IMG/VR virus record: IMGVR_UViG_3300018405_000013
Direction: 5' to 3' (one strand)
DNA length: 64,000 nucleotides
From: an uncultured virus (IMG/VR IMGVR_UViG_3300018405_000013)
Lineage: Duplodnaviria; Heunggongvirae; Uroviricota; Caudoviricetes
Of this stretch, positions 5,049-51,678 are shown piece by piece (position 1 is the first letter of the stretch; each line of letters opens with the position of its first letter). The notes beneath the pieces were generated by a model that did no database searches, had not been told where the DNA came from, and was given only the letters and a program-made list of their open reading frames with translations. Both the position numbers and the translations under genes were made by a program.

Positions 5049-5209
5049 ATTCCATCTTTAATTTCGATATGCTTAGTTGTTTTCTTACACTTAACACACC
5101 ATAAATCTTTTATATGACCAACTTTTCTTTGTCTGCCCGCATGTCTTGAAATTGGAAACAACGAACCACATTCTTCACATCTTAACCACGTTATCACTGT
5201 CTTTATCAT
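5036..5209 (-). CDS. 57-aa L33-like zinc-ribbon protein
   Basis: Own translation MIKTVITWLRCEECG...GHIKDLWCVKCKKTTKHIEIK; two CxxC pairs; ATGA overlap with upstream stop. Confidence 0.7.
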   Translation of the reverse strand: MIKTVITWLRCEECGSLFPISRHAGRQRKVGHIKDLWCVKCKKTTKHIEIKDGIWRD

Positions 5210-5514
5210 AAAAGCACCACCTCAAAATTATTGCCAACCAATTCCATCGCGCGATGCATAACCAGATACATATAGGAATCAGTCCTAACAGCATAAACAT
5301 CATTATTATGTTGATTTGGTTTATACGGTGCGATACACACAACTTTACCAATTGTTCCATCTTCATATAATGCACCACTTTCGAACAGTGGTAAATATTC
5401 TGGACAATTCGTAATAACCCATTCTTCATAGCAGTAATAGCAACATGCGTATGCTTTGCTTATTTTAACCTTTGAACCAACTTTAATATCATCACTCATA
5501 TCAACCCTCCTCAC
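5206..5514 (-). CDS. Small protein, W..N.P/IAP family, C-terminal tag (FEVVLL)
   Basis: Paralog of 17349, 20789, 24383, 29427. Confidence 0.8.
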   Translation of the reverse strand: MRRVDMSDDIKVGSKVKISKAYACCYYCYEEWVITNCPEYLPLFESGALYEDGTIGKVVCIAPYKPNQHNNDVYAVRTDSYMYLVMHRAMELVGNNFEVVLL

Positions 5515-5546
5515 TTACATAAGTCTTTCATATGCCATCCCTTCTG

Positions 5547-5828
5547 TTAAATAAGGGAAACGGCATAGTTATTGAATAAATCTTCATAGTAACATTCTTC
5601 AAATCCATCAAGCATCCAATTACCAGTTAGACAGGATTCACTTGGACTAAAATCAGAATAGAAGAAAGATATATGTCGCTTTGCCATAAAACTACTAATA
5701 GTTCTACCCTTACCAAGTTTACCTTGTTGATTTAAAAAGTTAATAAATCTTTCTTTATTATTATCTTCTTTAAACAACATGTTTATATAGTTATTTTGAA
5801 TATGTTCTAAAATTTCAAAATCATTCAT
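5547..5828 (-). CDS. Small protein, RH.[ST]FFY/YYEDL family, C-terminal tag (YAVSLI)
   Basis: Paralog of 7881 and 23280. Confidence 0.8.
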   Translation of the reverse strand: MNDFEILEHIQNNYINMLFKEDNNKERFINFLNQQGKLGKGRTISSFMAKRHISFFYSDFSPSESCLTGNWMLDGFEECYYEDLFNNYAVSLI

Positions 5829-5840
5829 AATACCCTCCGT

Positions 5841-6191
5841 TTATAAAAGGTCTACTTCATATTTACCGCCAATAACAACTTCACCAGTTACTTTATTATA
5901 TTGCACCGGCGACATAACTTCGTATTCACAATATAATTCCATTCGCTTAAGTAAATTATCCATATCATTTGAACTTGCAAAAACGACACTTGTATTACAT
6001 GATTTTGTCAATAAACAATATCTGTCATTGAAAAACACTATTGGATAATATCCACCAACCGGAATATGTTGTTCAACAATCATTTTCGAATTGGCACTTT
6101 GATCTTCTATTATCTCTTTTGTATTAAATAAGTGTGTAAATTCAAAACTGCCCGCACTTTTAATATCCATAACAAGATTCATAATAACCAC
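5841..6191 (-). CDS. Small protein, YYPI family, C-terminal tag (YEVDLL)
   Basis: VGGYYPIV motif. Confidence 0.8.
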   Translation of the reverse strand: MVIMNLVMDIKSAGSFEFTHLFNTKEIIEDQSANSKMIVEQHIPVGGYYPIVFFNDRYCLLTKSCNTSVVFASSNDMDNLLKRMELYCEYEVMSPVQYNKVTGEVVIGGKYEVDLL

Positions 6192-6382
6192 CTTCCTTTA
6201 TAACAGACTTTTTATATCGGAAATTATTTCTTCTATCCGGTTTAATTCTTGCTTATCGTAAGATGATTGCGCCTTAAGTTTAATGGCTTTTAGCTTGTAT
6301 TTGCTTAAAAGTTTTTCTAAGTTTGAACGCATATTTACATACATATATACACGTGTATCTACCATAACAATATCTCCTTAAA

Positions 6383-6589
6383 CTATAGTTTTATTATCGC
6401 ATCATAGTTAATTTCTTCAACGCTTCCGAAATACCAATCTTGCGATTTATTGGAAAATGTTTTATTTTCTTTAAACCAGTGTTTTGCTTGTTCTTCTGTT
6501 AATGCAAATGCAAGATACCGTTCAATTTTTGTATCATTGCTTTTATCTTTATCAATATATCTGTGAATGTTAATAATCCATGCTTTCAT
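6383..6589 (-). CDS. Hypothetical protein
   Basis: ORF in operon context with RBS. Confidence 0.6.
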   Translation of the reverse strand: MKAWIINIHRYIDKDKSNDTKIERYLAFALTEEQAKHWFKENKTFSNKSQDWYFGSVEEINYDAIIKL

Positions 6590-6591
6590 AA

Positions 6592-6780
6592 TTACAATCC
6601 TTCCTTTGCTTCAATATAATATCCGCTATCATTTGTATGTAACAGAACACCGTTGTCAGTAATAACATATCCAACGACACTGTTAGGATTGATATATACA
6701 TGCGACGCAATAATTAAACCGATAACAATACCAATTATAAAAAATACAAGCACCTTAACAGTTTCTTTTAATAATTCCAT
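6592..6780 (-). CDS. Small membrane protein
   Basis: N-terminal hydrophobic helix; RBS GGGGAGG behind promoter. Confidence 0.7.
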   Translation of the reverse strand: MELLKETVKVLVFFIIGIVIGLIIASHVYINPNSVVGYVITDNGVLLHTNDSGYYIEAKEGL

Positions 6781-6820
6781 AACAATTACCTCCCCAATAA
6801 TTCTTTTTTAACCTACATAT

Positions 6821-6849
6821 ATTATATCATATTTTACATATAATGTCAA
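6821..6849 (-). promoter_or_regulatory. SigA-type promoter with extended -10
   Basis: TTGACA-17-TATAAT with TG at -15/-14. Confidence 0.85.
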
Positions 6850-6853
6850 ATCA

Positions 6854-6878
6854 AAAAAGACCGCATATTGCGGTCTTT
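6854..6878 (-). terminator. Intrinsic terminator
   Basis: AAAGACCGC-ATATT-GCGGTCTTT hairpin with U-tract on minus strand. Confidence 0.8.
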
Positions 6879-6887
6879 AAATAATAT

Positions 6888-7172
6888 TTATTTATACATT
6901 TTGTATTTAATGTAGTCACACATATCTTCAAAAGTGTTTCTAAAAAACCTATTCCACACCTTTGTTAATACACACCAAACACCTACGCATATTAGCATTA
7001 TGCATGTTCCAGGCAAAAACGCCAATAGTATTATTGCTTTAAGCAAAATACCGAATCTGGTAATTTTTTTACTTTTTGGGTATCTGTATACATAGCTAAA
7101 TACAACACTAGTAGATACACCAATTCCAAACAATACATATAAGTATAACAGCACAGAAATTAATTCATTCAT
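6888..7172 (-). CDS. Membrane protein
   Basis: Two hydrophobic segments; RBS GGGAGG. Confidence 0.7.
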   Translation of the reverse strand: MNELISVLLYLYVLFGIGVSTSVVFSYVYRYPKSKKITRFGILLKAIILLAFLPGTCIMLICVGVWCVLTKVWNRFFRNTFEDMCDYIKYKMYK

Positions 7173-7201
7173 TTTAATTACCTCCCAGTAAATTTAATAT
7201 A

Positions 7202-7462
7202 TTATAACTTTTTCCAATGAAATGTGCTACCTTCAAAATGTCCAGTTCTAAACGAAATTGATTTTGTAATTTCTATTTCCACTTCAAAAAATGATATAAA
7301 ATCTTTACCACAATCTTTGCACACATGGTCAAAGCAGATTGCGCTTGGCGCATTAACATTTAAAGTATTCATACTTTGATTTATAGTATATGTGCTTTTG
7401 CCGCCACATTTGGGGCACCTTATATCTTCAACATTTAATTTTTCTAAATTCATTTCAAACAC
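7202..7462 (-). CDS. Zinc-ribbon protein
   Basis: CPKCG and CKDCG pairs. Confidence 0.7.
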   Translation of the reverse strand: MFEMNLEKLNVEDIRCPKCGGKSTYTINQSMNTLNVNAPSAICFDHVCKDCGKDFISFFEVEIEITKSISFRTGHFEGSTFHWKKL

Positions 7463-7773
7463 CCCAATGTATATGACTTATGACATGTTTTAAAATAATT
7501 TTTAAAATCTTCTATAATTACATCATACAAACGATTGACTTCTTTAGTGCCGGCGCATAATCCTTCTTCTTTGAAGAAAGAAACATATGTCGAATCTTCG
7601 TTGTTTGAAATAACAATCTTGATTGAACTGTATGGCACGTATTTCGTTGGAATGATAACAATTGAATTGTCAACAGTGTCATTTTTAAAAGAACCGAAAA
7701 TGCTTCCTATAACATCTTCTGTGAACACGACCATGTCATTTACTGGCATATTACTTACATAAATATTTTCCAT
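7450..7773 (-). CDS. Hypothetical protein
   Basis: RBS TTGGGAGG downstream of promoter. Confidence 0.7.
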   Translation of the reverse strand: MENIYVSNMPVNDMVVFTEDVIGSIFGSFKNDTVDNSIVIIPTKYVPYSSIKIVISNNEDSTYVSFFKEEGLCAGTKEVNRLYDVIIEDFKNYFKTCHKSYTLGCLK

Positions 7774-7823
7774 TTTTAATTACCTCCCAAGTAACTATGT
7801 ATTTATCTTTAACTTATAATATA

Positions 7824-7852
7824 ATTATACCAAAAATGCATATAAATGTCAA
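7824..7852 (-). promoter_or_regulatory. SigA-type promoter
   Basis: TTGACA-17-TATAAT. Confidence 0.85.
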
Positions 7853-7880
7853 GTATGTAAAAAAGACCACAAAAGTGGCC

Positions 7881-8165
7881 TTATATCAAATCTACTTTAT
7901 AACTGGAAAATAAATCTTCATAATAATATTCGTTCTTCTTCCTACTTTGTCGTGTGCCATACATAACAGTGCTTGACATCTCCAAATCTTCTTCATAAAA
8001 GAATGTTAAGTGCCTTCTTCCAAGCAATTCGTTATATGAACCGCTACTCCAAAATACATGTTTATTTTTAAGATATTCAAGGAATGAAATTTGATTGGCG
8101 CCACGTTTAAATAACAGATTCATTGGCTCGGTTTTCATTTTCTGTAATATTTCATCGTTTGACAT
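7881..8165 (-). CDS. Small protein, RH.[ST]FFY/YYEDL family, tag (YKVDLI)
   Basis: Paralog of 5547. Confidence 0.8.
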   Translation of the reverse strand: MSNDEILQKMKTEPMNLLFKRGANQISFLEYLKNKHVFWSSGSYNELLGRRHLTFFYEEDLEMSSTVMYGTRQSRKKNEYYYEDLFSSYKVDLI

Positions 8166-8179
8166 AACACGCCCCCTTT

Positions 8180-8425
8180 CTATATTAAATCAACAGCGTA
8201 TTGATTTACAACAAGTTCTAAACAATCTACCATAACCCACCAGCATTTTCCTGGGTCGCCACATCCAATTCCACAAACACCATTGCCATCATGATATCCA
8301 ACCGGTGCATCATCAAATTCAACCAGTATTTCAGTTAGTGAAGAATTTTTTATATGTTTTATGGTTCCTGTTTTTCCTCTATAAACAACCCTATCCCCGA
8401 CTTCATATGGTTTATTATCATCCAT
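8180..8425 (-). CDS. SH3-like protein, H[DN]G/CW family, tag (YAVDLI)
   Basis: GDRV..G.I..VEFD..GYHDG..CWW. Confidence 0.8.
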   Translation of the reverse strand: MDDNKPYEVGDRVVYRGKTGTIKHIKNSSLTEILVEFDDAPVGYHDGNGVCGIGCGDPGKCWWVMVDCLELVVNQYAVDLI

Positions 8426-8436
8426 AATAATCCTCC

Positions 8437-8685
8437 TTATAACAAATTTACTTCATATTTATTTTCAAGTTCAATTTCATTATCTGCACACCAAATATCT
8501 TTATCTGATGCATGGTCAAATGTAACACATATTGGATAATCAGCGCAATTTGGAAATATATTGTTTACAATACCAACATCACCAACATGAACACCATATT
8601 CTGCCAATGGTGTTTCGATGCAGTCAGTGTCGTCTACAACACGAACCCTGTCGCCAATTTTATATTTAAGTTTATTGTCAGCCAT
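8437..8685 (-). CDS. SH3-like protein, GDRVR family, tag (YEVNLL)
   Basis: Paralog of 9035, 9280, 11164. Confidence 0.8.
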   Translation of the reverse strand: MADNKLKYKIGDRVRVVDDTDCIETPLAEYGVHVGDVGIVNNIFPNCADYPICVTFDHASDKDIWCADNEIELENKYEVNLL

Positions 8686-8694
8686 AATAACCCC

Positions 8695-9021
8695 CTAAAC
8701 TAAATCAACCGCATAGTTATCTTTAATAACCACATAACCATCTTCTTCATCGTATTCAAGTATATCAATTACTTCAAACGTAGTATGATTATGCAATACA
8801 CGTGTAACTTCGGATATATGAGTATTCCCAGTAACATGATCCACCACGTCAAATCTTTTATCAAGACATCTATATCTAAGACCATCATATATGATTGGAT
8901 AATATTTATCCACTTCAAGATACGATTTAATTACCGCAGTCTTTAAACTGGTTATTTTAACAAGACAATAAATTGTAAAACGTTCGTTCCTTGCATTATT
9001 TATGTTCATATTAATTTTCAT
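8695..9021 (-). CDS. YYPI family protein, tag (YAVDLV)
   Basis: VDKYYPIIYD. Confidence 0.8.
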   Translation of the reverse strand: MKINMNINNARNERFTIYCLVKITSLKTAVIKSYLEVDKYYPIIYDGLRYRCLDKRFDVVDHVTGNTHISEVTRVLHNHTTFEVIDILEYDEEDGYVVIKDNYAVDLV

Positions 9022-9034
9022 TGTATTTTACTCC

Positions 9035-9262
9035 CTATAACAAATCTACTTTAAACTCATTTATAAGTTCAAGTTCACATTCGGCAAATGTTAGCCTTCT
9101 ATCTTTAATATCAAGTTTAACTAAAAATGGGTATCTATCATTTCTTTCTAATCCAATAACAGTTCCTTCGTCGCCAACTTTAACCCCAAGTTGTTCCATT
9201 GATATAAATGGGCTTGAATTGCCAATTAGACGAACGCGACTGCCTATTTTTAATTCAGACAT
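9035..9262 (-). CDS. SH3-like protein, tag (FKVDLL)
   Basis: Close tandem paralog of 9280 (shared MEQL, LTFAECE). Confidence 0.85.
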   Translation of the reverse strand: MSELKIGSRVRLIGNSSPFISMEQLGVKVGDEGTVIGLERNDRYPFLVKLDIKDRRLTFAECELELINEFKVDLL

Positions 9263-9279
9263 TTTTCACACACCTCGCC

Positions 9280-9507
9280 TTATAATAATTCTACATTAAA
9301 CTTATTAACAGATTCTATTTCACATTCAGCAAATGTTAAAATTCCTTCGCGTTTATCAAGCTTTGCCACAATTGAATATTTTGTATTACTTCTAAATCCA
9401 ATTACCGTTCCTACATATCCCTTTTCAATTTTAAGTTGTTCCATTGTTAGAAATGGATTGATATTATCTATAACGCGAACACGGTCACCAATATTATATT
9501 TTGTCAT
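9280..9507 (-). CDS. SH3-like protein, tag (FNVELL)
   Basis: Close tandem paralog of 9035. Confidence 0.85.
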   Translation of the reverse strand: MTKYNIGDRVRVIDNINPFLTMEQLKIEKGYVGTVIGFRSNTKYSIVAKLDKREGILTFAECEIESVNKFNVELL

Positions 9508-9517
9508 TTCACACCAC

Positions 9518-9886
9518 CTAAATTAAATCTATTTGATACGAATTTGCAACAAATTCATACCGTGTAACACCATCGTTAAGTTCACCAATAAATGATAGTT
9601 TTAAATTGTCGGATAGTGTTTTATACACGCGAAGGTGTAAATACCCATCTTTGAAATTCATATCAAATTCTGCACGAACATAATCTTCACCTAAGAGCCA
9701 ATCCTTAATCCAACAATCTCTGTTTCCATTTTCAATTCTTTCACAAGCCATAATTTGTTTGTATAGTTTTAAGTATGATTTAAAATCTGGAATAAGTATA
9801 TAAGCCACATGATATGCATTAAATTGGTCAACTTTCTGTAAATCATCTATTCTAATCATAACATCCTCTTTTCTAAAATAAATCAC
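9518..9886 (-). CDS. Y.QI/N..W family protein, tag (YQIDLI)
   Basis: Paralog of 11739, 12108, 24016, 24701. Confidence 0.8.
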   Translation of the reverse strand: MIYFRKEDVMIRIDDLQKVDQFNAYHVAYILIPDFKSYLKLYKQIMACERIENGNRDCWIKDWLLGEDYVRAEFDMNFKDGYLHLRVYKTLSDNLKLSFIGELNDGVTRYEFVANSYQIDLI

Positions 9887-9938
9887 ATCACCTACCTATT
9901 TTGGTAAAAGATATAGTCTTTGATAATTTATACCACAT

Positions 9939-10226
9939 TCATTTTTTCGTCGCTGTATGGGGCGATTTGACCCCTTCTCGCACGCCCTGTGCACGACACG
10001 ATAGATTATATTTCGCAAATTCAATCAGCAATCCAATTATTTCTGAAAATAATACAGCCACCACTAATATCGGGAAAACATTTGGATTTTTATTTAAACC
10101 CAACGATTGCAATATAAGAATTAGGCTTAAAAAGAATATCGTTGAGATGTTAGCCAGTATTTTGCTTAAAATCGAAATCCACTGGTAAAACATTCCGAAT
10201 ATAAACCCCATCGTTAATATTTCCAT
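9939..10226 (-). CDS. Membrane protein
   Basis: Hydrophobic segments; RBS AAGGAG. Confidence 0.55.
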   Translation of the reverse strand: MEILTMGFIFGMFYQWISILSKILANISTIFFLSLILILQSLGLNKNPNVFPILVVAVLFSEIIGLLIEFAKYNLSCRAQGVREGVKSPHTATKK

Positions 10227-10470
10227 AACAGTCTCCTTTTGTATGTTATAATAAAAGAAATATTTTATCTGTAAAATTCATTTTCTACACCCATAGAAAC
10301 ATATGGATGAAAGTTTTTGATTTTTAAGATTTATGCCTGAATATGACAAAAAGATTTTATCTATATTTTTTTTAGTTTTTCTTCAAGTTTAGCTTTATAG
10401 TATCCCGCTTTGTAGGCATTATACACTAATCCATATACGCACAATAATTCTGCGATAGTAACGCCTATTA

Positions 10471-10857
10471 TTATAATTCCATCCATTCTATTACCTGCTT
10501 TCCGTTGTCACAATACTGAGATAAATCTATTCCGATTTCATTTAACACGTCGCACTTAATCCATACGTTGGTAAGTTGACGTTCTTCGATTTTGTAAGGT
10601 TTATCATAATACTCAATCATATAGTAAACGTCAGCTTCTTTTTTGATTATTAAATAGGTGCATGATTCGTATTCATCGCCTTCAATAAATTCAAAATCAT
10701 ACAACCCACCAACTTCTAAATCTTGAAGGATTGTTCTTTTAATAACACCAATTTTTGTCTTTAAATCATAGTAATAGCCAATATTTTCATATCCACAAAA
10801 CTTATCGCCGTTTGTGTGTTCTTCAATCCGTAATTTTACATCATTCATTTTATTCAT
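10471..10857 (-). CDS. Hypothetical protein
   Basis: ORF with RBS AAGGAAG. Confidence 0.65.
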   Translation of the reverse strand: MNKMNDVKLRIEEHTNGDKFCGYENIGYYYDLKTKIGVIKRTILQDLEVGGLYDFEFIEGDEYESCTYLIIKKEADVYYMIEYYDKPYKIEERQLTNVWIKCDVLNEIGIDLSQYCDNGKQVIEWMEL

Positions 10858-10866
10858 CTTCCTTTG

Positions 10867-11148
10867 CTATAACAGTTCAACATTATATTTACTTTTAGAA
10901 AAATCAGACCATTTAAGAATAGTATAACTACTTCTACATAACCCAGATACACTTCCGAAATATCCTTCATTAAAATAGTAAACGGTTCCAGAACGATATA
11001 CATCAAAATTATTAGTTTTACTGTATGGCAAACCACCGACCCAACATCTACCATCGTCATGCATTAATTTGCAAAATTCAATACATTCTTCTTCTGTCTG
11101 ACAATGCATTACATAGTTGCCAGTATAGTCTTTAAAATTAAATTTCAT
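10867..11148 (-). CDS. C.T.EE..F family protein, tag (YNVELL)
   Basis: HCQTEEECIEFC...GRCW.GG. Confidence 0.8.
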   Translation of the reverse strand: MKFNFKDYTGNYVMHCQTEEECIEFCKLMHDDGRCWVGGLPYSKTNNFDVYRSGTVYYFNEGYFGSVSGLCRSSYTILKWSDFSKSKYNVELL

Positions 11149-11163
11149 ATCAAGACCTCCCTA

Positions 11164-11424
11164 TTAAATTAAATCCACCTCATATTGATTTACTTTCTGG
11201 ATTTCAGCAACACAACAAGCAACACAACTACCATTACCAAAGTTAATGGTTATTGGAAACGCTTCTGTTTCTGCCAACATTCCGACTATAACACCTTCAT
11301 CGCCAATATCAACGCCATATTCAACTAACGGTGCACCAGAAGAATAATCCGTCCTTATTATTTTAACCCTGTCGCCAACCTTATAATCATCAAAATTATT
11401 TGGTGGTAATAAATCACTTTTCAT
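11164..11424 (-). CDS. SH3-like protein, tag (YEVDLI)
   Basis: PLVEYGVDIGDEG; paralog of 8437. Confidence 0.8.
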   Translation of the reverse strand: MKSDLLPPNNFDDYKVGDRVKIIRTDYSSGAPLVEYGVDIGDEGVIVGMLAETEAFPITINFGNGSCVACCVAEIQKVNQYEVDLI

Positions 11425-11723
11425 ATCAAATCCACCTTATACTTATTTCCGTTCAAATATATATTATGAAGTTTAGTTTCTATGCAATCTACCTTCCAGA
11501 CTCTTGGAATACGTTTACTGTCATATTCCACATTTATAATGAATCCGCCATTTTTATCTCCTTTATACCATAAATCAATATCACGAATGATTCCAGTAGT
11601 GGGAAATTTGATACCATGTCGAACGGAATATATACCAACGGTATCGCCAATCATTATTTTTTCGCCGTCACATTCGACAGATATTATTTTGTCGCCATTA
11701 TATTTTAAAACACATTCTTTCAC
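11421..11723 (-). CDS. Small protein, tag (YKVDLI)
   Basis: IGDTV...G.I pattern; terminal motif. Confidence 0.8.
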   Translation of the reverse strand: MKECVLKYNGDKIISVECDGEKIMIGDTVGIYSVRHGIKFPTTGIIRDIDLWYKGDKNGGFIINVEYDSKRIPRVWKVDCIETKLHNIYLNGNKYKVDLI

Positions 11724-11738
11724 AATTACACCACCTTA

Positions 11739-12098
11739 TTATATTAAATCAACATTGTACGCGTTGATTGTAAATTTATATATTATGGAATCCGAATATA
11801 CCCTTGATATTAAGCTAAATTTTAAAAGCCCGGAAAATACATCCTTGTGAACTTTGACATACATAACCCCATCGCGCTTTTTAGATATAAATTCTTTCTG
11901 AATATACCATGAACCAATATCATAATCTTCACGCCAAGCGTTTCTATTTTTTTCTGCAACTAAATCAGAAGATATGATTTGTTCATACAGTTCATAATAT
12001 TCTTCGAACGTAGATATTGAAAAATATACCGTATTAAATTCACCTATGCGGGGAATACTGCAATCTGCAAGTTGTGATATATTTGTTATGATTTTCAT
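11739..12098 (-). CDS. Y.QI/N..W family protein, tag (YNVDLI)
   Basis: LYEQIISSD..NRNAWREDY. Confidence 0.8.
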   Translation of the reverse strand: MKIITNISQLADCSIPRIGEFNTVYFSISTFEEYYELYEQIISSDLVAEKNRNAWREDYDIGSWYIQKEFISKKRDGVMYVKVHKDVFSGLLKFSLISRVYSDSIIYKFTINAYNVDLI

Positions 12099-12107
12099 TT
12101 TAACCCC

Positions 12108-12461
12108 CTAAATTATATCAACAGTATATTCATTATTTTCAGAAAACTTATATATGAAATCATTTTCTTTAAAATCATCTGCAAAAGCAAGTTGAAACAT
12201 CAAACCATCGGAACATGAACCAATTCTAAGAAATATACAATTATCCTTCAAACTTACATAGTCGTTATATTCATATTCGATTCCATCTATACCACGGCAC
12301 AAATCATTAAACCAAGATTGTTTATTTATTGGTTCAACACAGTCTGAATTGGAAACTTGTTCGTAGAATTTCTTATACAGGTCAAGCCCTCCAATTCGTA
12401 AAAAATATCTTCTTTCAAAATCTGTAATTTCAATTTTATCTATATTGGATATTGCTACCAT
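12108..12461 (-). CDS. Y.QI/N..W family protein, tag (YTVDII)
   Basis: FYEQVSNSD..NKQSWFND. Confidence 0.8.
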   Translation of the reverse strand: MVAISNIDKIEITDFERRYFLRIGGLDLYKKFYEQVSNSDCVEPINKQSWFNDLCRGIDGIEYEYNDYVSLKDNCIFLRIGSCSDGLMFQLAFADDFKENDFIYKFSENNEYTVDII

Positions 12462-12466
12462 AATTT

Positions 12467-12826
12467 TTATTTCCTTCCTACATGAAATATGATGTAAAAT
12501 AGTTTATACATCATTATGCATAAATATACAATTAGCATAATGATGCAATAAATAGGATTAGCTATTATATATCCTACGGAAACAAACATGCATCCAAAGA
12601 TGTTCATTTTTGTATTTCTATATATTGAAATTGGCATAAAGTAAAACAGGTTTTCTTCATATAAATCAAAACCAATTGTAAAAAAGAATGCTATTATTCC
12701 ATACGCTATATATACGCCAATTGAAGAATTTATAATTATTTCCATACTTATACAACCCTTTCGTTTCATTTTAGAAAAGCACGAATTATACGTGCTTTTA
12801 ACTATTTCTTCCAAATATAGTAGCAT
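12467..12826 (-). CDS. Membrane protein (true start probably internal)
   Basis: Hydrophobic; IY..TKMN.FGC motif. Confidence 0.6.
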   Translation of the reverse strand: MLLYLEEIVKSTYNSCFSKMKRKGCISMEIIINSSIGVYIAYGIIAFFFTIGFDLYEENLFYFMPISIYRNTKMNIFGCMFVSVGYIIANPIYCIIMLIVYLCIMMYKLFYIIFHVGRK

Positions 12827-13014
12827 CCATTTCCAGTGGCGGACATATATGAATGCCCAAGGTCTGCAATATGTTTTTCGAAATCCTTGCGTTCCTTTAT
12901 TTCTTCCTGTGTCGCCAGATAAAGCGGAAATAGAACCTGTTTGCCATTTAGGAAATCTTTCATATTCTTTTCATTCCGTTGTTCTAATGTCATTTTCATT
13001 TCTTTACCTCTCAA
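12802..13014 (-). CDS. Hypothetical protein
   Basis: ORF in operon context. Confidence 0.55.
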   Translation of the reverse strand: MRGKEMKMTLEQRNEKNMKDFLNGKQVLFPLYLATQEEIKERKDFEKHIADLGHSYMSATGNGCYYIWKK

Positions 13015-13028
13015 AATAAATCCTAAAT

Positions 13029-13265
13029 TTAAACAACCCCGCTGTCTAAATATCTAAACGTAAACGATTTCTTAAACCACTTTTTAATACATGGTGTATT
13101 TCCTTCAAGGCAACTAACTACTTCAATTGCGCTAACTTTAAATTCTTTGCAGATATCAAAAACTGATTTGAAAACTTCGCCAGTTTCAAGACAAATAATA
13201 TCACGTTCTGGAAGATTTAAAGGTCTATATACCTTTATTCTGACGTCTTTCTTTTTTCTTCTCAT
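13029..13265 (-). CDS. NUMOD1-like DNA-binding protein
   Basis: IICLETGEVFKSVFDICKEF motif. Confidence 0.6.
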   Translation of the reverse strand: MRRKKKDVRIKVYRPLNLPERDIICLETGEVFKSVFDICKEFKVSAIEVVSCLEGNTPCIKKWFKKSFTFRYLDSGVV

Positions 13266-13279
13266 TTCATTTACCTCCC

Positions 13280-13615
13280 TTAATAGATGTAGTCCATTAG
13301 CAGTTTAGCTTTGTATATTTCCGAAGCCAATCTTTTACACTGTATCATCTGTTTGTCTGATAATTTCTTTCCAGACTGAATCTGTTTAACAAAACTACCT
13401 ATATATGCATATCCGCTTATAAGACTGTAATCAATAGCAATTTTAAGCTTTTCAATATCCAATAATTTTAGCGTATCTTCTATGTCATTAGAAGATTTAA
13501 AATACGTAGTCCATTTAACAGACCTTCCATAAATAGCTTCCCTTGATTGGTTGCTATTTACTTCAATAGCGATTCTCATATATCCATTATGTAATTTCAT
13601 CTTTTTACCTTCCAA
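13280..13615 (-). CDS. Hypothetical protein
   Basis: ORF directly behind promoter. Confidence 0.65.
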   Translation of the reverse strand: MEGKKMKLHNGYMRIAIEVNSNQSREAIYGRSVKWTTYFKSSNDIEDTLKLLDIEKLKIAIDYSLISGYAYIGSFVKQIQSGKKLSDKQMIQCKRLASEIYKAKLLMDYIY

Positions 13616-13647
13616 AGTAAATATCTCTTTCTTTAACTTATATATAT

Positions 13648-13676
13648 ATTATATCACTTTTTAGATACTATGTCAA
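13648..13676 (-). promoter_or_regulatory. SigA-type promoter with extended -10
   Basis: TTGACA-17-TATAAT with TG. Confidence 0.85.
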
Positions 13677-13680
13677 ATTA

Positions 13681-13705
13681 AAAAAGACCACAAAAGTGGT
13701 CTTTT
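13681..13705 (-). terminator. Intrinsic terminator (sequence repeated near 7861 and 16368)
   Basis: AAAAGACCAC-AAAA-GTGGTCTTTT. Confidence 0.85.
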
Positions 13706-13707
13706 TA

Positions 13708-14001: not shown

Positions 14002-14021
14002 TTTTTAACACCCCTTTTTTA

Positions 14022-14363: not shown

Positions 14364-14380
14364 GTTAAGTTTACCTCCGG

Positions 14381-15159: not shown

Positions 15160-15168
15160 AAAACCCCC

Positions 15169-16832: not shown

Positions 16833-16846
16833 TTTAAAATCTCCTC

Positions 16847-49095: not shown

Positions 49096-49887
49096 TTAAT
49101 AGTAGTCGTGAATATTATTTCCACTCCATCCTGTTCCGACACCTGTTCCGTATGATTTAATCTTTGGTTGATAGTCAAAAATTACATCCTTATCCGCTTC
49201 TTGGATAATTTTTAACAGTTTTTCGGTAGTAGAAAGCATTGTTTCAACGTTCACAATTTCGGATGTTTGGTGTTCGCCTTCAAAACCACATGATAAATTA
49301 ACACCTGCAACATCAAATTGGTCGCATAAGATGCAAATATCGGTTCTTGTTCCCTGTGCCGTATCAAAACCGTATGCATTGATATATTTTTCAAAATCCT
49401 TGTTACCACAATTGTAGTATACAGAATCATTTTTGTTTCTTCTGTCAAGTTGAACAAAAAATCTTACGTCTTCCATAAGGTTTGCGCACTCTTTTTTCAA
49501 AAATTCACACGCAATCTTGGTTGATGCACTACCACATTCTTCGTCTGTTGAAAAGAATAGACTTGGTAAACCTGCGCCTTCTTCTAAGGATTGCAATATT
49601 TTTAAAATAATCCATACGCCACATCTGTCATCCCCACCGATTCCTTGTGGTGAATGAATAATCAGCTTTTCAGCTTCACTAAACATATCCCGAACCGGTT
49701 CTTTGTGAACAGTATCAAGATGTGCACATAAACATACCGGACTTGTTCCTTTAAAATAAGCCCACCGTGGGAAATATACAACATTTTTTTCGTCATACAA
49801 TTCAGATAACTGTTCGTATAACCAATCTAACAGATCATAAGTGTTTGCTTGACATAAAAGCTTGAAGCCTTTGTAATTAAATTCCAT
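49096..49887 (-). CDS. M20/M28-like zinc peptidase (paralog of 43195)
   Basis: AHLDTVH, GGDDRCG, DEECG, LDRR, TDI, EH. Confidence 0.85.
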   Translation of the reverse strand: MEFNYKGFKLLCQANTYDLLDWLYEQLSELYDEKNVVYFPRWAYFKGTSPVCLCAHLDTVHKEPVRDMFSEAEKLIIHSPQGIGGDDRCGVWIILKILQSLEEGAGLPSLFFSTDEECGSASTKIACEFLKKECANLMEDVRFFVQLDRRNKNDSVYYNCGNKDFEKYINAYGFDTAQGTRTDICILCDQFDVAGVNLSCGFEGEHQTSEIVNVETMLSTTEKLLKIIQEADKDVIFDYQPKIKSYGTGVGTGWSGNNIHDYY

Positions 49888-49900
49888 AACTTTCCTCCCA

Positions 49901-50548
49901 TTATAAAATAGCTTTCCATGAAACCTTTTCAGCCAATAAAATTGACTTTTTATTCACATCTACCTTTTCGGCACCTACTGATTTTTGCTTAAGTTCTACC
50001 ACATTTGTAGACGCTGTAGTCGTCGTAAAAGTATATTTGCCGATTTTTGAGTCTAAAAGTGCTTTAAAGGCTCCTTTGTCGATTAAGTCCTCTAAATCTA
50101 TTGTATAGGATAAATCGGATAAAATCGTAGCTTTCCTATTTACGGCAAAGCTCATTTCACCTTTATTGTTTAACTGCATCATTACAAATTCATCAAGCAT
50201 TGGATTCATAACTTTTTCGAACTTTGTAATTGCATCGTTATCAATATCGGCAGACTTAGACATCATAAATCTTCCAATCATATTGAACCTACATGGTCTG
50301 TAATCATTGTTGAACGTAGAATAAGAAACCCGTGACACATAATCTTCATCAAAGTTACACATAACCCACTCATTTACATTTTGTGGCGGAATATATATAT
50401 CCTCAACGATATATTTTTTGCCCAACTTTCTAATTAAACAAACCCACATTAAGTTTGTTTTAATGTTTTCTGCAATATACTTAAGCATTGCATACACCTG
50501 TGGTTTTAGAACAATTTCTGGTTCTGGATGTTTGTACTGAATTTTCAA
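49901..50548 (-). CDS. Possible catalytically degenerate JAB/MPN-like protein
   Basis: W...I......YIVEDIYIPPQNV resembles prokaryotic JAB N-terminal strands, but no HxH motif; promoter at 50597-50625. Confidence 0.45.
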   Translation of the reverse strand: MKIQYKHPEPEIVLKPQVYAMLKYIAENIKTNLMWVCLIRKLGKKYIVEDIYIPPQNVNEWVMCNFDEDYVSRVSYSTFNNDYRPCRFNMIGRFMMSKSADIDNDAITKFEKVMNPMLDEFVMMQLNNKGEMSFAVNRKATILSDLSYTIDLEDLIDKGAFKALLDSKIGKYTFTTTTASTNVVELKQKSVGAEKVDVNKKSILLAEKVSWKAIL

Positions 50549-50770
50549 TGTAAATTCCTCCCTTTCATTTGGTTCTTGTTTCTTACTTATATATTTATTA
50601 TAACACTTTTCATAAGACGTGTCAAGTCAACTATCTTTATCTTTTTGTTTGAAAGCTGTCACTATAGATGATATCCCGCTACATATAGCAAGTATCGGAA
50701 TCCATCCTAATAGTAAAAAATACAATAGAAATAAAGTTGTATTATCACTCAACTTAATATCCTCCTTCTA

Positions 50771-51070
50771 TTATATAATTGATACGTTATAATCTATGCC
50801 ATATAAAAACATATCTAACGAATAGTTATACCCACCAATTCTAATATACCCATTTTTAGACCACTCATCTTCTTTGAAGACAAATCTAGTGAATTGATGT
50901 GCGTATTGTCTCATTTCAGAAGTAAAAGAACAATATATATTTGTTGCATATATCATATCTTCGACGGCTTTAAGTTTTAAAACATCACCGTCTTTAAGAT
51001 CTTTGAACCGCTCTTTTGTTTCCGGATCTCTTTGATTACTCAACATTTCCCTAATCTTAAATGAACACAT
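50771..51070 (-). CDS. Small protein, tag (YNVSII)
   Basis: DGDVLKL; terminal motif. Confidence 0.8.
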   Translation of the reverse strand: MCSFKIREMLSNQRDPETKERFKDLKDGDVLKLKAVEDMIYATNIYCSFTSEMRQYAHQFTRFVFKEDEWSKNGYIRIGGYNYSLDMFLYGIDYNVSII

Positions 51071-51079
51071 ATAATAATA

Positions 51080-51367
51080 TCACTCCTTTGCAAAAATGTC
51101 AACTATATATGGTTTTTTGTCATAAACATATATATTTCTACCTTCTTTTTCATAGAAGTCATTTGACGCACACTTAAAATTACCGGAATCGCTTATTGTA
51201 ACACATAGATGATTTCCATACTTATCACAATAATACGACATTTCTCGTTTATGCGGTATTCCTTTTGTCAATAGAAATGCACAAAATATTCTAAACGAAT
51301 CAAAACTTGCAAATCTTACTGCGATTTCTTTAGATTTCAATTTTTCATATAAAGCAATTTCATTCAT
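51080..51367 (-). CDS. C.T.EE-like family protein with extended tag (YIVDIF-AKE)
   Basis: AVRF.SFD.F..FC.FL...GI. Confidence 0.75.
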   Translation of the reverse strand: MNEIALYEKLKSKEIAVRFASFDSFRIFCAFLLTKGIPHKREMSYYCDKYGNHLCVTISDSGNFKCASNDFYEKEGRNIYVYDKKPYIVDIFAKE

Positions 51368-51384
51368 ATTTACCTCCCACCCAT

Positions 51385-51678
51385 TTATAATATATCAATA
51401 ACATATGGATTTGCTTCTAATCTTCTTAATGCAATATTTGGTATCACATACGGAATTTCTTTAAATGTAGAAGTTGAACCATTTGTATATTTTATTTCAA
51501 ACCTAGCATCAACTAGGTTTAAATGGTCATACATAGTTCCACTTAAGCCATAAAAAAGCGTTCCCTGTAAGCCATACGCAGTGCGTTCATCTTCCGTAAA
51601 GGTTTTTTTTACCAAATCTGTAATAGCATCAAATGATAAAAACCCAACAATGTCACCGTCTTTAAATTCGTAATTCAT
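51385..51678 (-). CDS. Small protein, tag (YVIDIL)
   Basis: FKDGDIV; terminal motif. Confidence 0.8.
   Translation of the reverse strand: MNYEFKDGDIVGFLSFDAITDLVKKTFTEDERTAYGLQGTLFYGLSGTMYDHLNLVDARFEIKYTNGSTSTFKEIPYVIPNIALRRLEANPYVIDIL

What the first reader, a model, noticed from the sequence alone, without database searches (positions are those of the whole stretch)
5206..51678. The tag is modular: attached to at least eight paralog families, with tagged and untagged members
Seen, tagged families: SH3-like H[DN]G..CW (8180, 18882, 21111, 30037, 30500); GDRVR (8437, 9035, 9280, 11164); TGRY (32267, 36252); W..N.P/IAP (5206, 17349, 20789, 24383, 29427); YYPI (5841, 8695, 14022, 28439, 29085, 32529, 33268); Y.QI/N..W (9518, 11739, 12108, 24016, 24701); RH.FFY (5547, 7881, 23280); C.T.EE (10867, 21772, 22053, 22621, 22957, 29724, 32002, 34638); C.DN (17155, 30306, 32861, 33058). 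Family members at 33597 and 36793 lack the tag, and 51080 has it capped by AKE. Families are interleaved rather than clustered. Inference: a diversified library of variable binding domains on a constant docking peptide, like adaptors bringing many targets (for example host defence proteins) to one machine.
Basis: partly seen in the sequence, partly recalled or inferred. Interest (0 to 1): 0.8.

Follow-up and report, generated by a model that had tools for sequence, protein, structure and literature searches.

The report
Shared C-terminal tag on phage proteins
An uncultivated large phage ends more than a third of the genes in this stretch, and in a variant form its own DNA polymerase, with the same eight-residue tail, which looks like a portable address label that brings many unrelated small proteins to one still unknown partner.

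Summary
57 of 148 minus-strand ORFs end in N-x-Y-x-V-[DENS]-L-[IL]-COOH. None of 203 plus-strand ORFs does, and there is 1 internal match in 18,825 residues. Codons vary synonymously, so selection acts on the peptide.

The SH3-like, GDRVR, W..N.P and TGRY families form one SH3-like superfamily. The others are YYPI, Y.QI, C.T.EE, RH.FFY and C.DN. There are also 17 tagged singletons.

AlphaFold2 models of two groups give different folds: a YorP-like SH3 barrel and an alpha/beta domain. In both, the tag is a low-confidence coil after the last fold element. Homologs elsewhere lack the tag (22 single-domain SH3 relatives, one C.T.EE fusion protein).

New finding: Pol III alpha in this lineage carries a tag-like C-terminal extension that more distant homologs lack.

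The tagged genes sit behind perfect sigma-A-type promoters, so they look like early genes.

Best reading: a docking peptide for one shared receptor. A replisome hub such as the sliding clamp is the leading but untested candidate (about 0.35). I found no description in print in my searches.

The parts
2630..2953 (-). tagged ORF, 107 aa, singleton, ends KKYIVDIL
5206..5514 (-). near-tag ORF, 102 aa, SH3-like (W..N.P group), ends NNFEVVLL
5547..5828 (-). tagged ORF, 93 aa, RH.FFY, ends NNYAVSLI
5841..6191 (-). tagged ORF, 116 aa, YYPI, ends GKYEVDLL
7881..8165 (-). tagged ORF, 94 aa, RH.FFY, ends SSYKVDLI
8180..8425 (-). tagged ORF, 81 aa, SH3-like (H[DN]G..CW group), ends NQYAVDLI
8437..8685 (-). 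tagged ORF, 82 aa, SH3-like (GDRVR, YorP-like), ends NKYEVNLL
8695..9021 (-). tagged ORF, 108 aa, YYPI, ends DNYAVDLV
9035..9262 (-). tagged ORF, 75 aa, SH3-like (GDRVR, YorP-like), ends NEFKVDLL; folded: barrel, tag 68-75 coil
9280..9507 (-). tagged ORF, 75 aa, SH3-like (GDRVR), ends NKFNVELL
9518..9886 (-). tagged ORF, 122 aa, Y.QI/N..W, ends NSYQIDLI
10867..11148 (-). tagged ORF, 93 aa, C.T.EE, ends SKYNVELL; its domain recurs untagged in P0016
11164..11424 (-). tagged ORF, 86 aa, SH3-like (GDRVR), ends NQYEVDLI
11421..11723 (-). tagged ORF, 100 aa, singleton, ends NKYKVDLI
11739..12098 (-). tagged ORF, 119 aa, Y.QI/N..W, ends NAYNVDLI
12108..12461 (-). tagged ORF, 117 aa, Y.QI/N..W, ends NEYTVDII
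14022..14363 (-). tagged ORF, 113 aa, YYPI, ends GEYCVDLI
17155..17352 (-). tagged ORF, 65 aa, C.DN, ends NQYTVNLL
17349..17645 (-). tagged ORF, 98 aa, SH3-like (W..N.P), ends GTYEVNLL
18882..19181 (-). tagged ORF, 99 aa, SH3-like (H[DN]G..CW), ends DEYKTELI
20789..21088 (-). tagged ORF, 99 aa, SH3-like (W..N.P), ends RSFEVELL
21111..21410 (-). near-tag ORF, 99 aa, SH3-like (H[DN]G..CW), ends NGYVAELL
21519..21775 (-). broken SH3-like member: ORF 21554-21775 truncated by a frame shift and an in-frame stop; the old 3' end still encodes ..NQYNVELI ending at 21519
21772..22056 (-). tagged ORF, 94 aa, singleton (C.T.EE membership not supported), ends KGYVVDLL
22053..22364 (-). near-tag ORF, 103 aa, C.T.EE, ends NPYEVALV
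22378..22617 (-). tagged ORF, 79 aa, singleton, ends NAYAVELI
22621..22941 (-). tagged ORF, 106 aa, C.T.EE, ends NKYCVSLI; folded: alpha/beta domain, residues 102-106 pLDDT under 50
22957..23298 (-). near-tag ORF, 113 aa, C.T.EE, ends NPYVVGLI (same ending in relative P0013)
23280..23570 (-). tagged ORF, 96 aa, RH.FFY, ends PKYCVELI
24016..24372 (-). tagged ORF, 118 aa, Y.QI/N..W, ends NSYSVDLI
24383..24688 (-). tagged ORF, 101 aa, SH3-like (W..N.P), ends HTYDVELI
24701..25051 (-). tagged ORF, 116 aa, Y.QI/N..W, ends NSYSVNLI
28439..28777 (-). near-tag ORF, 112 aa, YYPI, ends MDYSVTLV
29085..29414 (-). tagged ORF, 109 aa, YYPI, ends DSYEVELI
29427..29723 (-). tagged ORF, 98 aa, SH3-like (W..N.P), ends KSYNVELI
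29724..30032 (-). tagged ORF, 102 aa, C.T.EE, ends NPYVVDIL
30037..30297 (-). tagged ORF, 86 aa, SH3-like (H[DN]G..CW), ends SDYSVDII
30306..30488 (-). tagged ORF, 60 aa, C.DN (Pfam DUF6501 covers residues 2-49 only), ends NDFSVDII
30500..30754 (-). tagged ORF, 84 aa, SH3-like (H[DN]G..CW), ends PKYQVDLI
32002..32265 (-). tagged ORF, 87 aa, singleton (C.T.EE membership not supported), ends NPYSVDLL
32267..32515 (-). near-tag ORF, 82 aa, SH3-like (TGRY), ends NKYEVELT
32529..32864 (-). tagged ORF, 111 aa, YYPI, ends NDYSVDLI
32861..33061 (-). tagged ORF, 66 aa, C.DN, ends EDYEVELL
33058..33261 (-). tagged ORF, 67 aa, C.DN, ends NKYEVNLL
33268..33609 (-). tagged ORF, 113 aa, YYPI (by HMM, E 1.3e-5), ends KSYAVNLI
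33597..33839 (-). untagged member of the SH3-like family, 80 aa, ends IKIKGCVL
34352..34627 (-). tagged ORF, 91 aa, SH3-like, ends ECYTVDII
34638..34946 (-). tagged ORF, 102 aa, C.T.EE, ends NRYCVELI
34964..35215 (-). tagged ORF, 83 aa, weak SH3-like, ends NNYSVDLI
35582..35926 (-). tagged ORF, 114 aa, singleton, ends STYNVDLL
35946..36239 (-). tagged ORF, 97 aa, singleton, ends KKYEVDLI
36252..36521 (-). tagged ORF, 89 aa, SH3-like (TGRY), ends DNYNVDLI
36793..37167 (-). untagged member of YYPI, 124 aa; decayed SFTISFT at the tag position, then a 19-aa extension
37185..37817 (-). tagged ORF, 210 aa (longest), singleton, ends KSYVVNLL
37828..38205 (-). tagged ORF, 125 aa, singleton, ends NKYVVDLI
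38213..38500 (-). tagged ORF, 95 aa, SH3-like, ends NSYEVSLL
38516..38848 (-). tagged ORF, 110 aa, singleton, ends LKYGVELI
39024..39341 (-). tagged ORF, 105 aa, SH3-like (W..N.P), ends NKYSVELI
39355..39627 (-). tagged ORF, 90 aa, singleton, ends NNYSVELL
40780..41049 (-). tagged ORF, 89 aa, singleton, ends NKYAVDLI
41046..41276 (-). tagged ORF, 76 aa, singleton, ends NRYEVEII
41289..41540 (-). tagged ORF, 83 aa, weak SH3-like, ends YVYSVELL
50771..51070 (-). tagged ORF, 99 aa, singleton, ends IDYNVSII
51080..51367 (-). capped tag: 95 aa, ends PYIVDIF + AKE
51385..51678 (-). tagged ORF, 97 aa, singleton, ends NPYVIDIL
54911..55276 (-). tagged ORF, 121 aa, singleton, directly downstream of the NAD-dependent DNA ligase gene, ends SEYTVDLI
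57266..57583 (-). tagged ORF, 105 aa, singleton, three genes downstream of Pol III alpha, ends CDYNVELL
58709..60277 (-). DNA polymerase III alpha, C-terminal part (522 aa); ends EQYNVSLK, in register with the tag, last residue K instead of I/L; lineage-specific extension
2121..35551 (-). ten perfect TTGACA-17-TATAAT promoter-like sites on the coding strand (first hexamer at 2149, 6849, 7852, 13676, 19260, 20318, 26723, 28430, 31450, 35551; nine with TG), heading the gene runs that hold the tagged ORFs

Best explanation
The ending N-x-Y-x-V-[D/E/N/S]-L-[I/L]-COOH is a portable short linear docking peptide.

Shown:
- It is selected at the protein level.
- It sits at the exact C-terminus.
- It follows a two-residue polar turn.
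- It is attached to at least six groups of small, soluble proteins with no detectable mutual similarity, and to 17 singletons. These are probably early proteins.
- AlphaFold2 leaves it as a loose tail in two different folds.
- Homologs of the carrier domains in other genomes lack it.
- The phage's own DNA polymerase III alpha, and those of its three closest relatives, have gained a tag-like tail that more distant homologs lack.

Inferred: the tail binds as an extended strand. Y, V and L lie on one face, and the last residue and its free carboxylate sit in a pocket of one shared receptor. I commit to a replisome hub as that receptor, most likely the sliding clamp (host DnaN or a phage clamp encoded outside the window). 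The tail would then act like a clamp-binding motif and bring a diversified set of early proteins to the place where the polymerase docks, on replicating DNA.

Confidence by level:
- About 0.8 that it is a portable recognition peptide for one receptor.
- About 0.35 that the receptor is a clamp-like replisome hub. The confidence field refers to this.
For: Counts and chance:
- 57 of 148 ORFs carry the tag. 0 of 203 plus-strand ORFs do. There is 1 internal match in 18,825 residues. Residue shuffles give a mean of 0.046.

Protein-level selection:
- Val is encoded GTT 22, GTA 21, GTG 8, GTC 3. Leu at -2 is TTA 25, TTG 10, CTT 5, CTG 5, CTA 3. Stops are TAA 29, TAG 18, TGA 10.
- In 84 within-family pairs, paralog bodies are 26% identical and the five constrained tag positions 71%.

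Modularity:
- hhalign probabilities are under 3% between YYPI, Y.QI, C.T.EE, RH.FFY, C.DN and the SH3-like groups.
- The AlphaFold2 SH3-like barrel has pLDDT 84.7, with the last strand at residues 64-66 and the tag at 68-75 as coil; pLDDT averages 55 over the last five residues (71-75).
- The AlphaFold2 C.T.EE alpha/beta domain has pLDDT 82.9, with residues 102-106 under 50.
- 22 of the 25 non-window sequences in alignment A5 end 0-10 residues (one 13) after the last conserved strand, without a tag. 3 carry a tag: P0019, P0024 and P0027.
- P0016 continues from the C.T.EE domain into another domain, without a tag.
- PHROG and Pfam profiles cover only the protein bodies.

Shape of the tail:
- Positions -8 and -7 are 7% and 4% hydrophobic, against a 41% background. 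Y, V and L alternate.

Replisome link:
- The Pol III alpha tail EQYNVSLK ranks among the 8 best non-tag 8-mers of all window proteins under the tag's scoring matrix.
- Relatives at 59-65% identity end KEYDVEIV, EEYIADLI and EELIQELV. Five more distant homologs stop 0-2 residues after the last shared strand.
- 46 of 57 tags fit [LVIM][SDNE]L[FLI]$, the last four places of the bacterial clamp motif QL[S/D]LF. 0 of 91 untagged ORFs fit it (motif from PMC9690074, passage read).
- A Bacillus phage C-family polymerase has EEDLL aligned to the E. coli clamp motif. Viral C-family polymerases have divergent C-terminal regions (PMC3201878, passages read).

Early, cytoplasmic proteins:
- There are ten 12-of-12 sigma-A-type promoters on the coding strand and none on the other strand.
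- 1 of 57 tagged proteins has a membrane-like segment. The median length is 98 aa.
Against: - No receptor was identified. No DnaN- or gp45-like clamp is found among the 148 window ORFs by Pfam, nor among the 25 longer ORFs scanned with NCBIfam.
- The rest of the roughly 169-kb genome could not be read.
- The Gln that defines bacterial clamp motifs is present at the matching place in only 2 of 57 tags. The most conserved tag residues, Y at -6 and N at -8, have no counterpart in that motif.
- The motif is at the exact C-terminus in 57 of 57 cases. A clamp cleft does not require this. It would fit better a receptor that reads the free carboxylate, such as a PDZ-like domain, an AAA+ pore or a tail-specific protease.
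- The polymerase's own tail ends in K in this phage and is degenerate in two relatives.
- It is not obvious why about 60 different small proteins should ride on a clamp.
- The AlphaFold2 coil prediction for the SH3-like model rests on an alignment in which 22 of 29 rows lack the tag.
Confidence: 0.35

Rival explanations
1. C-terminal degron or protease tether. The tail is read by an AAA+ protease or its adaptor (ClpXP, ClpCP, Lon or FtsH of the host, or a phage protease). One version: all early proteins are removed on schedule. The other version is the reader's: the variable domains hold host targets and the tail delivers them for destruction, as the SspB adaptor tethers itself to ClpX.
For: - The tag is strictly terminal in 57 of 57 cases, with two hydrophobic last residues and a free carboxylate. 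ssrA-type degrons have the same property (recalled).
- A loose tail is predicted in two folds.
- The genes have early-type promoters.
- Capped or altered ends occur in some paralogs (AKE on 51080, T on 32267, K on the polymerase). These would make stable variants.
- SspB tethers itself to ClpX (PMC9963277, abstract start seen in the search listing).
Against: - A replicative polymerase lineage that gains and keeps a degron-like tail is hard to explain.
- There is no similarity to LAA-type endings, and an acidic residue sits at -3 in 46 of 57 tags.
- No AAA+ protease or adaptor is found in the window. The three peptidases present are an Asp-X dipeptidase type and two aminopeptidase types.
Confidence: 0.2
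2. Targeting signal for a phage-made container. The tail loads the proteins into the procapsid for co-injection, like the T4 capsid targeting sequence or encapsulin cargo peptides. Alternatively it sends them to a phage replication compartment.
For: [quoted passage not shown] This is the closest precedent for one short label on diverse proteins.
- The alternating hydrophobic pattern resembles encapsulin cargo peptides (recalled, not tested).
- A compartment signal would explain why the polymerase also carries it.
Against: - The genes lie behind consensus host-type promoters in what looks like an early region, not with head genes.
- The T4 signal is N-terminal and is cleaved off.
- About 60 packaged species would be unprecedented.
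- No capsid, scaffold or shell gene is in the window to test against.
Confidence: 0.1
3. Structural strand. The tail is a beta strand that folds back on the last strand of each domain as a hairpin, or pairs with the tail of another copy. It would then be a general stabilising or oligomerising cap, with no shared receptor.
For: - The polar two-residue turn followed by alternating Y-x-V-x-L is what a tight hairpin looks like. Positions -13 to -9 are mildly hydrophobic (46-58%).
Against: - AlphaFold2 does not pack the tail in either fold. pLDDT over its last five or six residues averages 55 and 45, and the whole tag is coil.
- Tagless homologs are complete domains.
- The same eight residues would have to fit an SH3-like barrel, an alpha/beta domain and at least four other sequence groups.
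Confidence: 0.08
4. Nucleic-acid element or inheritance artefact. The conserved 3' ends would be a DNA or RNA signal (promoter, ribosome-loading site, recombination joint), or simply the remains of recent duplications.
For: - The tag lies 5-20 nt upstream of the next gene's Shine-Dalgarno sequence in most cases.
Against: - Third codon positions and the stop codon vary freely while the residues are kept.
- The carriers are unrelated in sequence and fold.
- Relatives at 63-79% identity keep the tag, with changes only within the motif's allowed set.
Confidence: 0.01

Closest known systems
Bacterial beta-clamp-binding motif, QL[S/D]LF (PMC9690074, passage read)
   Same: - A short peptide, often at the C-terminus, carried by many unrelated proteins including the replicative polymerase, that docks them on one hub.
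- The last four tag residues fit [LVIM][SDNE]L[FLI] in 46 of 57 tags.
- A phage C-family polymerase has EEDLL at the aligned site (PMC3201878).
   Different: - The defining Gln is missing (2 of 57).
- The tag adds an invariant aromatic residue two places upstream and an Asn turn.
- It is always terminal.
- It is carried by about 40% of the ORFs in a 64-kb phage region.
- Binding was not tested.
T4 capsid targeting sequence on internal proteins (PMC3012670, passage read)
   Same: One short conserved label on otherwise highly diverse phage proteins, some of which are anti-restriction proteins.
   Different: The T4 label is N-terminal, about 10 residues long (length and cleavage recalled), removed by the prohead protease, and found on a handful of proteins. 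There is no sequence likeness. Here the label is C-terminal, sits on 57 proteins, and the genes look early.
ssrA-type C-degrons and the C-terminal ClpX-tethering tail of SspB (PMC9963277, listing only; details recalled)
   Same: A free, hydrophobic C-terminal tail read by one machine, and transferable between proteins.
   Different: There is no LAA-like or LRVVK-like sequence. The tag has an acidic residue at -3. It is encoded in the genes rather than added by tmRNA. A polymerase carries it.
B. subtilis SPbeta prophage protein YorP (PDB 2heq)
   Same: Best structural match of the GDRVR carrier domain (Foldseek TM 0.73, rmsd 2.4 over 73 columns, E 1.6e-3). The record for the c-st polymerase calls it a homolog of SPbeta YorL, so the replication module is of the same broad type.
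   Different: This concerns only the carrier fold, not the tag. YorP's function is unknown. Whether YorP has any such ending was not examined.
Cellulosome dockerin-cohesin and encapsulin cargo-loading peptides (recalled)
   Same: The same logic: variable catalytic or cargo part plus a constant docking part.
   Different: A dockerin is a folded domain of about 70 residues. Encapsulin peptides have other sequences and bind an HK97-fold shell. Neither was tested here.

Membership tests
beta-clamp-binding motif (QL[S/D]LF) | Gln at position 1 of the pentapeptide | tested here: not met
   Q at the matching place (-5) in 2 of 57 tags. The polymerase tail has Q one place before the Y (EQYNVSLK).
beta-clamp-binding motif (QL[S/D]LF) | hydrophobic - S/D - L - hydrophobic in the last four places | tested here: met
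   46 of 57 tags and 0 of 91 untagged ORFs end in [LVIM][SDNE]L[FLI].
beta-clamp-binding motif (QL[S/D]LF) | carried by the replicative polymerase and lying on a flexible segment | tested here: met
   A tag-like tail is added to Pol III alpha in 4 of 4 close relatives and absent in 5 of 5 more distant ones. Tails are coil with low pLDDT in two models.
beta-clamp-binding motif (QL[S/D]LF) | binds the hydrophobic cleft of a sliding clamp | not testable with these tools
No clamp gene is in the window. The rest of the genome is not held.
T4-type capsid targeting sequence | N-terminal leader removed by the prohead protease | tested here: not met
   The motif is at the C-terminal end in 57 of 57 cases. 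The N-termini of the carriers share nothing.
T4-type capsid targeting sequence | carriers are packed in the virion | not testable with these tools
   No proteome is available. The genes lie behind sigma-A-type promoters, which neither proves nor excludes late presence.
ssrA-like C-degron | non-polar last residues with free carboxylate | tested here: met
   L/I then I/L/V at the end in 57 of 57 tags. There is 1 internal match in 18,825 residues.
ssrA-like C-degron | LAA-like ending; degradation by ClpXP | tested here: not met
   No tag ends in AA. Degradation itself is not testable here.
PDZ ligand, class III (x-[D/E]-x-hydrophobic-COOH; classes recalled) | sequence pattern at the C-terminus | tested here: met
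   46 of 57 tags fit [DE].[LIV]$.
PDZ ligand, class III | a PDZ-domain receptor in reach | tested here: inconclusive
   No PDZ family among the Pfam hits of 148 window ORFs at E up to 0.01. The host and the rest of the phage genome are unknown.
SH3-like barrel, YorP-like (carrier of the GDRVR group only) | five-stranded small barrel matching solved SH3-like proteins | tested here: met
   AlphaFold2 pLDDT 84.7. Top Foldseek hits are YorP 2heq (TM 0.73), then PsaE, FeoA and CPH/SH3 domains, all with E above 0.001. PHROG 18380, 7871 and 22041 match the bodies.

The most novel reading that the evidence does not exclude
A phage-wide address-label system. About 60 diversified early effector domains and the replicative polymerase share one C-terminal peptide. 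That peptide plugs them into a single hub on phage DNA, a sliding clamp or an unknown processivity factor. The result would be a clamp-borne library of host-takeover or anti-defence proteins that travels with the replicating genome. Tags are gained, capped and lost as paralogs turn over.
Probability: 0.2. Interest if true: 0.95.

Novelty: new variant of a known kind. Interest (0 to 1): 0.82.

Why it matters
Short docking peptides shared by many proteins are known for cellular hubs such as clamps, proteases and PDZ scaffolds. T4 has an N-terminal capsid label on a few internal proteins. Here one peptide ends 57 of 148 ORFs in a phage region, on unrelated folds, and in variant form ends the polymerase.

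If the receptor is found, it names a central control point of infection in an uncultivated group of large Firmicute-type phages. It would also give dozens of orphan early proteins a common handle for experiments: pull-downs through the tag, and tag removal as a general loss-of-function test. It could also provide a compact, transferable eight-residue tag for Gram-positive hosts. Finally, the paralogs that have lost, capped or mutated the tag form a natural series for studying how such linear motifs spread and decay.

Tried and rejected
- No whole genome is held for the window. The 143-kb metagenome contig that carries the same phage cannot be searched by handle. I therefore could not count tags genome-wide or look for a receptor outside the window.
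- The search for related loci with the Y.QI alignment in viral contigs found no relative. The YYPI alignment had no stretch conserved enough to search with. Of P0027 and P0024, only P0024 gave a locus: a weak one (40% identity over 44 residues) with no tagged ORF.
- Scans with a tag-encoding DNA pattern:
  - 17 single hits in viral contigs.
  - 113 or more loci in metagenome contigs, where the only multi-hit contig is the same phage.
  - 120 loci in genome contigs, none with two tagged ORFs.
- A shorter pattern in 401 genomes of one class gave at most 4 hits per genome, like its reversed control. The 64-kb window has 20 hits.
- tblastn of two tagged proteins against 50,697 phage records gave one weak hit, the untagged N-terminal domain of an Enterococcus phage protein, and no hit for C.T.EE.
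- The first 50 kb of Clostridium phage c-st has 0 tagged of 196 ORFs. The Enterococcus phage locus has 0 of 168.
- The ESM Atlas gave low-confidence models and no usable lead for a Y.QI protein or for the 214-aa ORF next to the polymerase.
- The C.T.EE model has no clear solved-structure match: Foldseek best E 0.65, VIA best Z 3.6. Its best matches are weak ones to uncharacterised phage proteins (TM 0.55-0.60).
- PDB sequence searches of two unknown ORFs gave nothing significant.
- No tRNA, tmRNA or Rfam family is in the window.
- Sequencing runs: no RNA holder was listed. Laid contigs of a near-identical strain and of a relative were too fragmentary for a count of changes in tag versus body. 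One change in the tail of 32267 is synonymous.
- dN/dS was not attempted, because paralogs are about 26% identical and synonymous sites are saturated.
- Full-text searches for a described shared C-terminal motif on phage early proteins found nothing relevant.

Full report
**What the window is**

All long ORFs lie on the minus strand. GC content is about 31% and GC skew is negative throughout. Pfam and PHROGs find the following:
- a DNA polymerase III alpha split by a LAGLIDADG ORF
- an NAD-dependent ligase
- a MazF domain
- two GNATs
- a radical SAM protein
- an NMNAT-like protein
- NADAR
- a PepE-like S51 peptidase
- two M28/M42-like peptidases
- an SLT domain
- a LemA-like protein

The closest named phage by polymerase is Clostridium phage c-st, at 43.5% identity over 90% of the C-terminal part. 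No whole genome is held.

The same phage lies at 99.995-100% identity on a 143-kb metagenome contig. The protein database records a longest contig of 169,327 bases for the window's proteins. Four freshwater runs hold the stretch. A wastewater run holds a small share of it (0.14), probably from a relative.

**The observation**

- 57 ORFs end in [YFW].[VIT][DENS][LI][LIV], all on the minus strand. That is 57 of 209 minus-strand ORFs of at least 35 aa, or 57 of 148 after removing overlaps. 0 of 203 plus-strand ORFs match.
- Shuffling the residues of each protein gives a mean of 0.046 matches, with at most 2 in 1000 rounds.
- The pattern occurs once internally in 18,825 residues.
- The consensus is N(29)-x-Y(53)/F(4)-x-V(54)-D29/E17/N7/S4-L(48)/I(9)-I35/L21/V1.
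- Seven more ORFs carry near-tags or a capped tag.
- One broken gene still encodes the tag downstream of a frame shift and a stop.

**Protein level or DNA level**

The residues are kept while the codons vary. Val uses four codons (22, 21, 8, 3). Leu at -2 uses five. All three stop codons follow the tag (29, 18, 10). Relatives found in metagenomes keep the tag:
- P0006 is 63% identical to ORF 9518 and ends in the same NSYQIDLI.
- P0012 is 79% identical to ORF 22621 and has NKYCIDLI where the window has NKYCVSLI. Both changes stay inside the motif's allowed set.

Within families, bodies are 26% identical and the five constrained tag positions 71% (84 pairs). The signal is therefore a peptide under purifying selection.

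**How many independent carriers**

With the last eight residues trimmed, blastp gives seven clusters that contain tagged proteins. Iterated HMM searches and hhalign join the H[DN]G..CW/TGRY, GDRVR and W..N.P families into one SH3-like superfamily (probabilities 84-95%). YYPI, Y.QI, C.T.EE, RH.FFY and C.DN stay apart (probabilities under 3%).

C.DN rests on weak DUF6501/DUF7244 hits.

Nineteen tagged ORFs fell outside the eight family alignments. Two of these (34964, 41289) had joined the SH3-like set by iterated HMM. That leaves 17 singletons, some of which also show weak SH3-like scores. The carriers are thus six groups with no detectable mutual similarity plus many singletons.

**Is the tag part of the folds**

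- An AlphaFold2 model of ORF 9035 (29-row alignment) is an SH3-like barrel, with pLDDT 84.7 and its last strand at residues 64-66. The tag (68-75) is coil, and pLDDT averages 55 over the last five residues, 71-75. Its best solved match is B. subtilis SPbeta YorP (TM 0.73).
- A model of ORF 22621 (8 rows, all with a tag or near-tag) is an alpha/beta domain with pLDDT 82.9. Residues 102-106 are under 50 and coil. It has no clear solved match and only weak matches to longer uncharacterised phage proteins.
- A profile search of 1.84 billion representatives with the GDRVR group gave 149 hits. I printed 32 of them and aligned 25 non-window sequences. Of these, 22 end 0-10 residues (one 13) after the conserved last strand and have no tag. 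Three have one: P0019, P0024 and P0027.
- P0016, from another large contig, has the C.T.EE domain followed by a different domain and no tag.
- PHROG and Pfam profiles stop where the tag starts.

The carriers are not one fold, and outside homologs do not share the ending.

**Anatomy of the tail**

Positions -8 and -7 are almost never hydrophobic (7% and 4%, against a 41% background). Y, V and L then alternate with polar residues, and the chain ends in two hydrophobic residues. This reads as a tight turn followed by an extended strand with one greasy face and a free carboxylate, which is the usual form of a peptide that docks by strand addition or pocket insertion. This is inference.

**Context**

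Ten perfect TTGACA-17-TATAAT sites, nine of them with an upstream TG, lie on the coding strand between 2 and 36 kb. None lies on the other strand. Each sits in a gap ahead of a run of genes, several just after terminator-like hairpins. Four more promoter-like units stand at 87-nt spacing at 45654-45948. The tagged genes therefore look like early genes read by the host RNA polymerase (inference). Tagged proteins are small (median 98 aa), mildly acidic (median pI 5.5) and soluble (1 of 57 has a membrane-like segment).

**The polymerase**

Under a scoring matrix built from the 57 tags, the C-terminus of Pol III alpha (EQYNVSLK) is among the eight best non-tag 8-mers in all window proteins. It is the only one of those that sits at the C-terminus of a protein outside the tagged families. 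It is in register with the tag and differs in the last residue, K (AAA) instead of I/L.

Three relatives at 59-65% identity end KEYDVEIV (a full tag), EEYIADLI and EELIQELV. Five more distant homologs, including c-st and phiCD211, stop 0-2 residues after the last shared strand. The tail is therefore an add-on to the polymerase in this lineage.

From the literature:
- Viral C-family polymerases have divergent C-terminal regions.
- No known processivity factor was found in c-st.
- One Bacillus phage polymerase has EEDLL aligned to the E. coli clamp-binding site (PMC3201878, passages read).
- The bacterial clamp motif is QL(S/D)LF, usually C-terminal (PMC9690074, passage read).
- 46 of 57 tags fit the last four places of that motif, and 0 of 91 untagged ORFs do. 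Only 2 of 57 have the Gln.

**Mechanism**

I commit to a docking peptide for one shared receptor, with a clamp-like replisome hub as the leading candidate (0.35).

Against this:
- The Gln is missing.
- The extra conserved Y and N have no counterpart in the clamp motif.
- The position is strictly terminal.
- No clamp is found in the window.
- About 60 clamp riders have no obvious purpose.

The rivals are a degron or protease tether (0.2), a capsid or compartment signal (0.1), a structural strand (0.08) and a nucleic-acid element (0.01). The remaining probability lies with an unknown receptor of another kind. The complex prediction that could have tested the clamp was not available.

**How widespread**

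Pattern scans of viral, metagenome and genome collections, and of 401 genomes of one class, found no other multi-tag genome. 50 kb of c-st and 24 kb of an Enterococcus phage have no tagged ORF.

The tag does occur in a small lineage outside the window: P0006, P0007, P0012-P0014, P0019, and the more distant P0024, P0027, P0170 and P0172. These were seen only as single proteins on short or unreachable contigs.

**Novelty**

Two full-text searches found no description of such a shared ending. The nearest precedents are the clamp motif, the T4 capsid targeting sequence (PMC3012670, passage read) and C-terminal degrons or tethers (PMC9963277, listing only). The tag passes no membership test fully. 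I rate it a new variant of a known kind (a shared linear docking motif), of unusual scale, with high interest.

Noticed in passing
window 45654-45948: Four promoter-like units (TTGACA ... TATAAT on the minus strand) at 86-87-nt spacing, upstream of the 374-aa ORF 44483-45607. This looks like an array of tandem strong promoters.
   Followed up: partly
window 21519-21775: A member of the SH3-like family is broken by a frame shift and an in-frame stop, but its old 3' end still encodes the tag (..NQYNVELI). This shows that tagged paralogs decay.
   Followed up: yes
window 58709-62886: DNA polymerase III alpha is in two ORFs (61429-62886 and 58709-60277), separated by a LAGLIDADG endonuclease ORF (60343-61179). 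No Rfam intron family was detected. Whether the insert is an intron or the gene is truly split is open.
   Followed up: partly
window 41782-44253 and 49096-49887: A cluster of peptidase-like genes: PepE-like S51, NADAR and two paralogous M28/M42-like peptidases. This is unusual for a phage, and any link to the tag is unknown.
   Followed up: no
window 25065-28350: An NMNAT-like cytidylyltransferase, a DUF4760 protein, a radical SAM protein with weak viperin-like scores, and a MazF domain with a 66-aa N-terminal extension lie together among the tagged genes.
   Followed up: no
window 15169-15594 and 23582-24004: Two GNAT acetyltransferase paralogs both end in YYKLN[IL]. This is a second, different conserved ending.
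   Followed up: no
window 1603-2288, 2954-3800, 46208-47472: Stretches of 0.7-1.3 kb without ORFs of 35 aa or more. No tRNA, tmRNA or Rfam match. The last stretch holds several inverted repeats.
   Followed up: partly
P0022, P0023, P0051: In other genomes the GDRVR-type SH3-like domain occurs as 5-12 tandem repeats in proteins of 600-1300 aa, for example separated by DQYEEW linkers in P0051. In this phage it stands alone with the tag.
   Followed up: no
L254 (phiCD211) 3154-3339: In phiCD211 the gene after Pol III alpha is annotated 'Initiation-control protein YabA'. This small protein is named after a clamp- and DnaA-binding regulator (YabA's role recalled). The record itself marks the name as having no homology support.
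   Followed up: no
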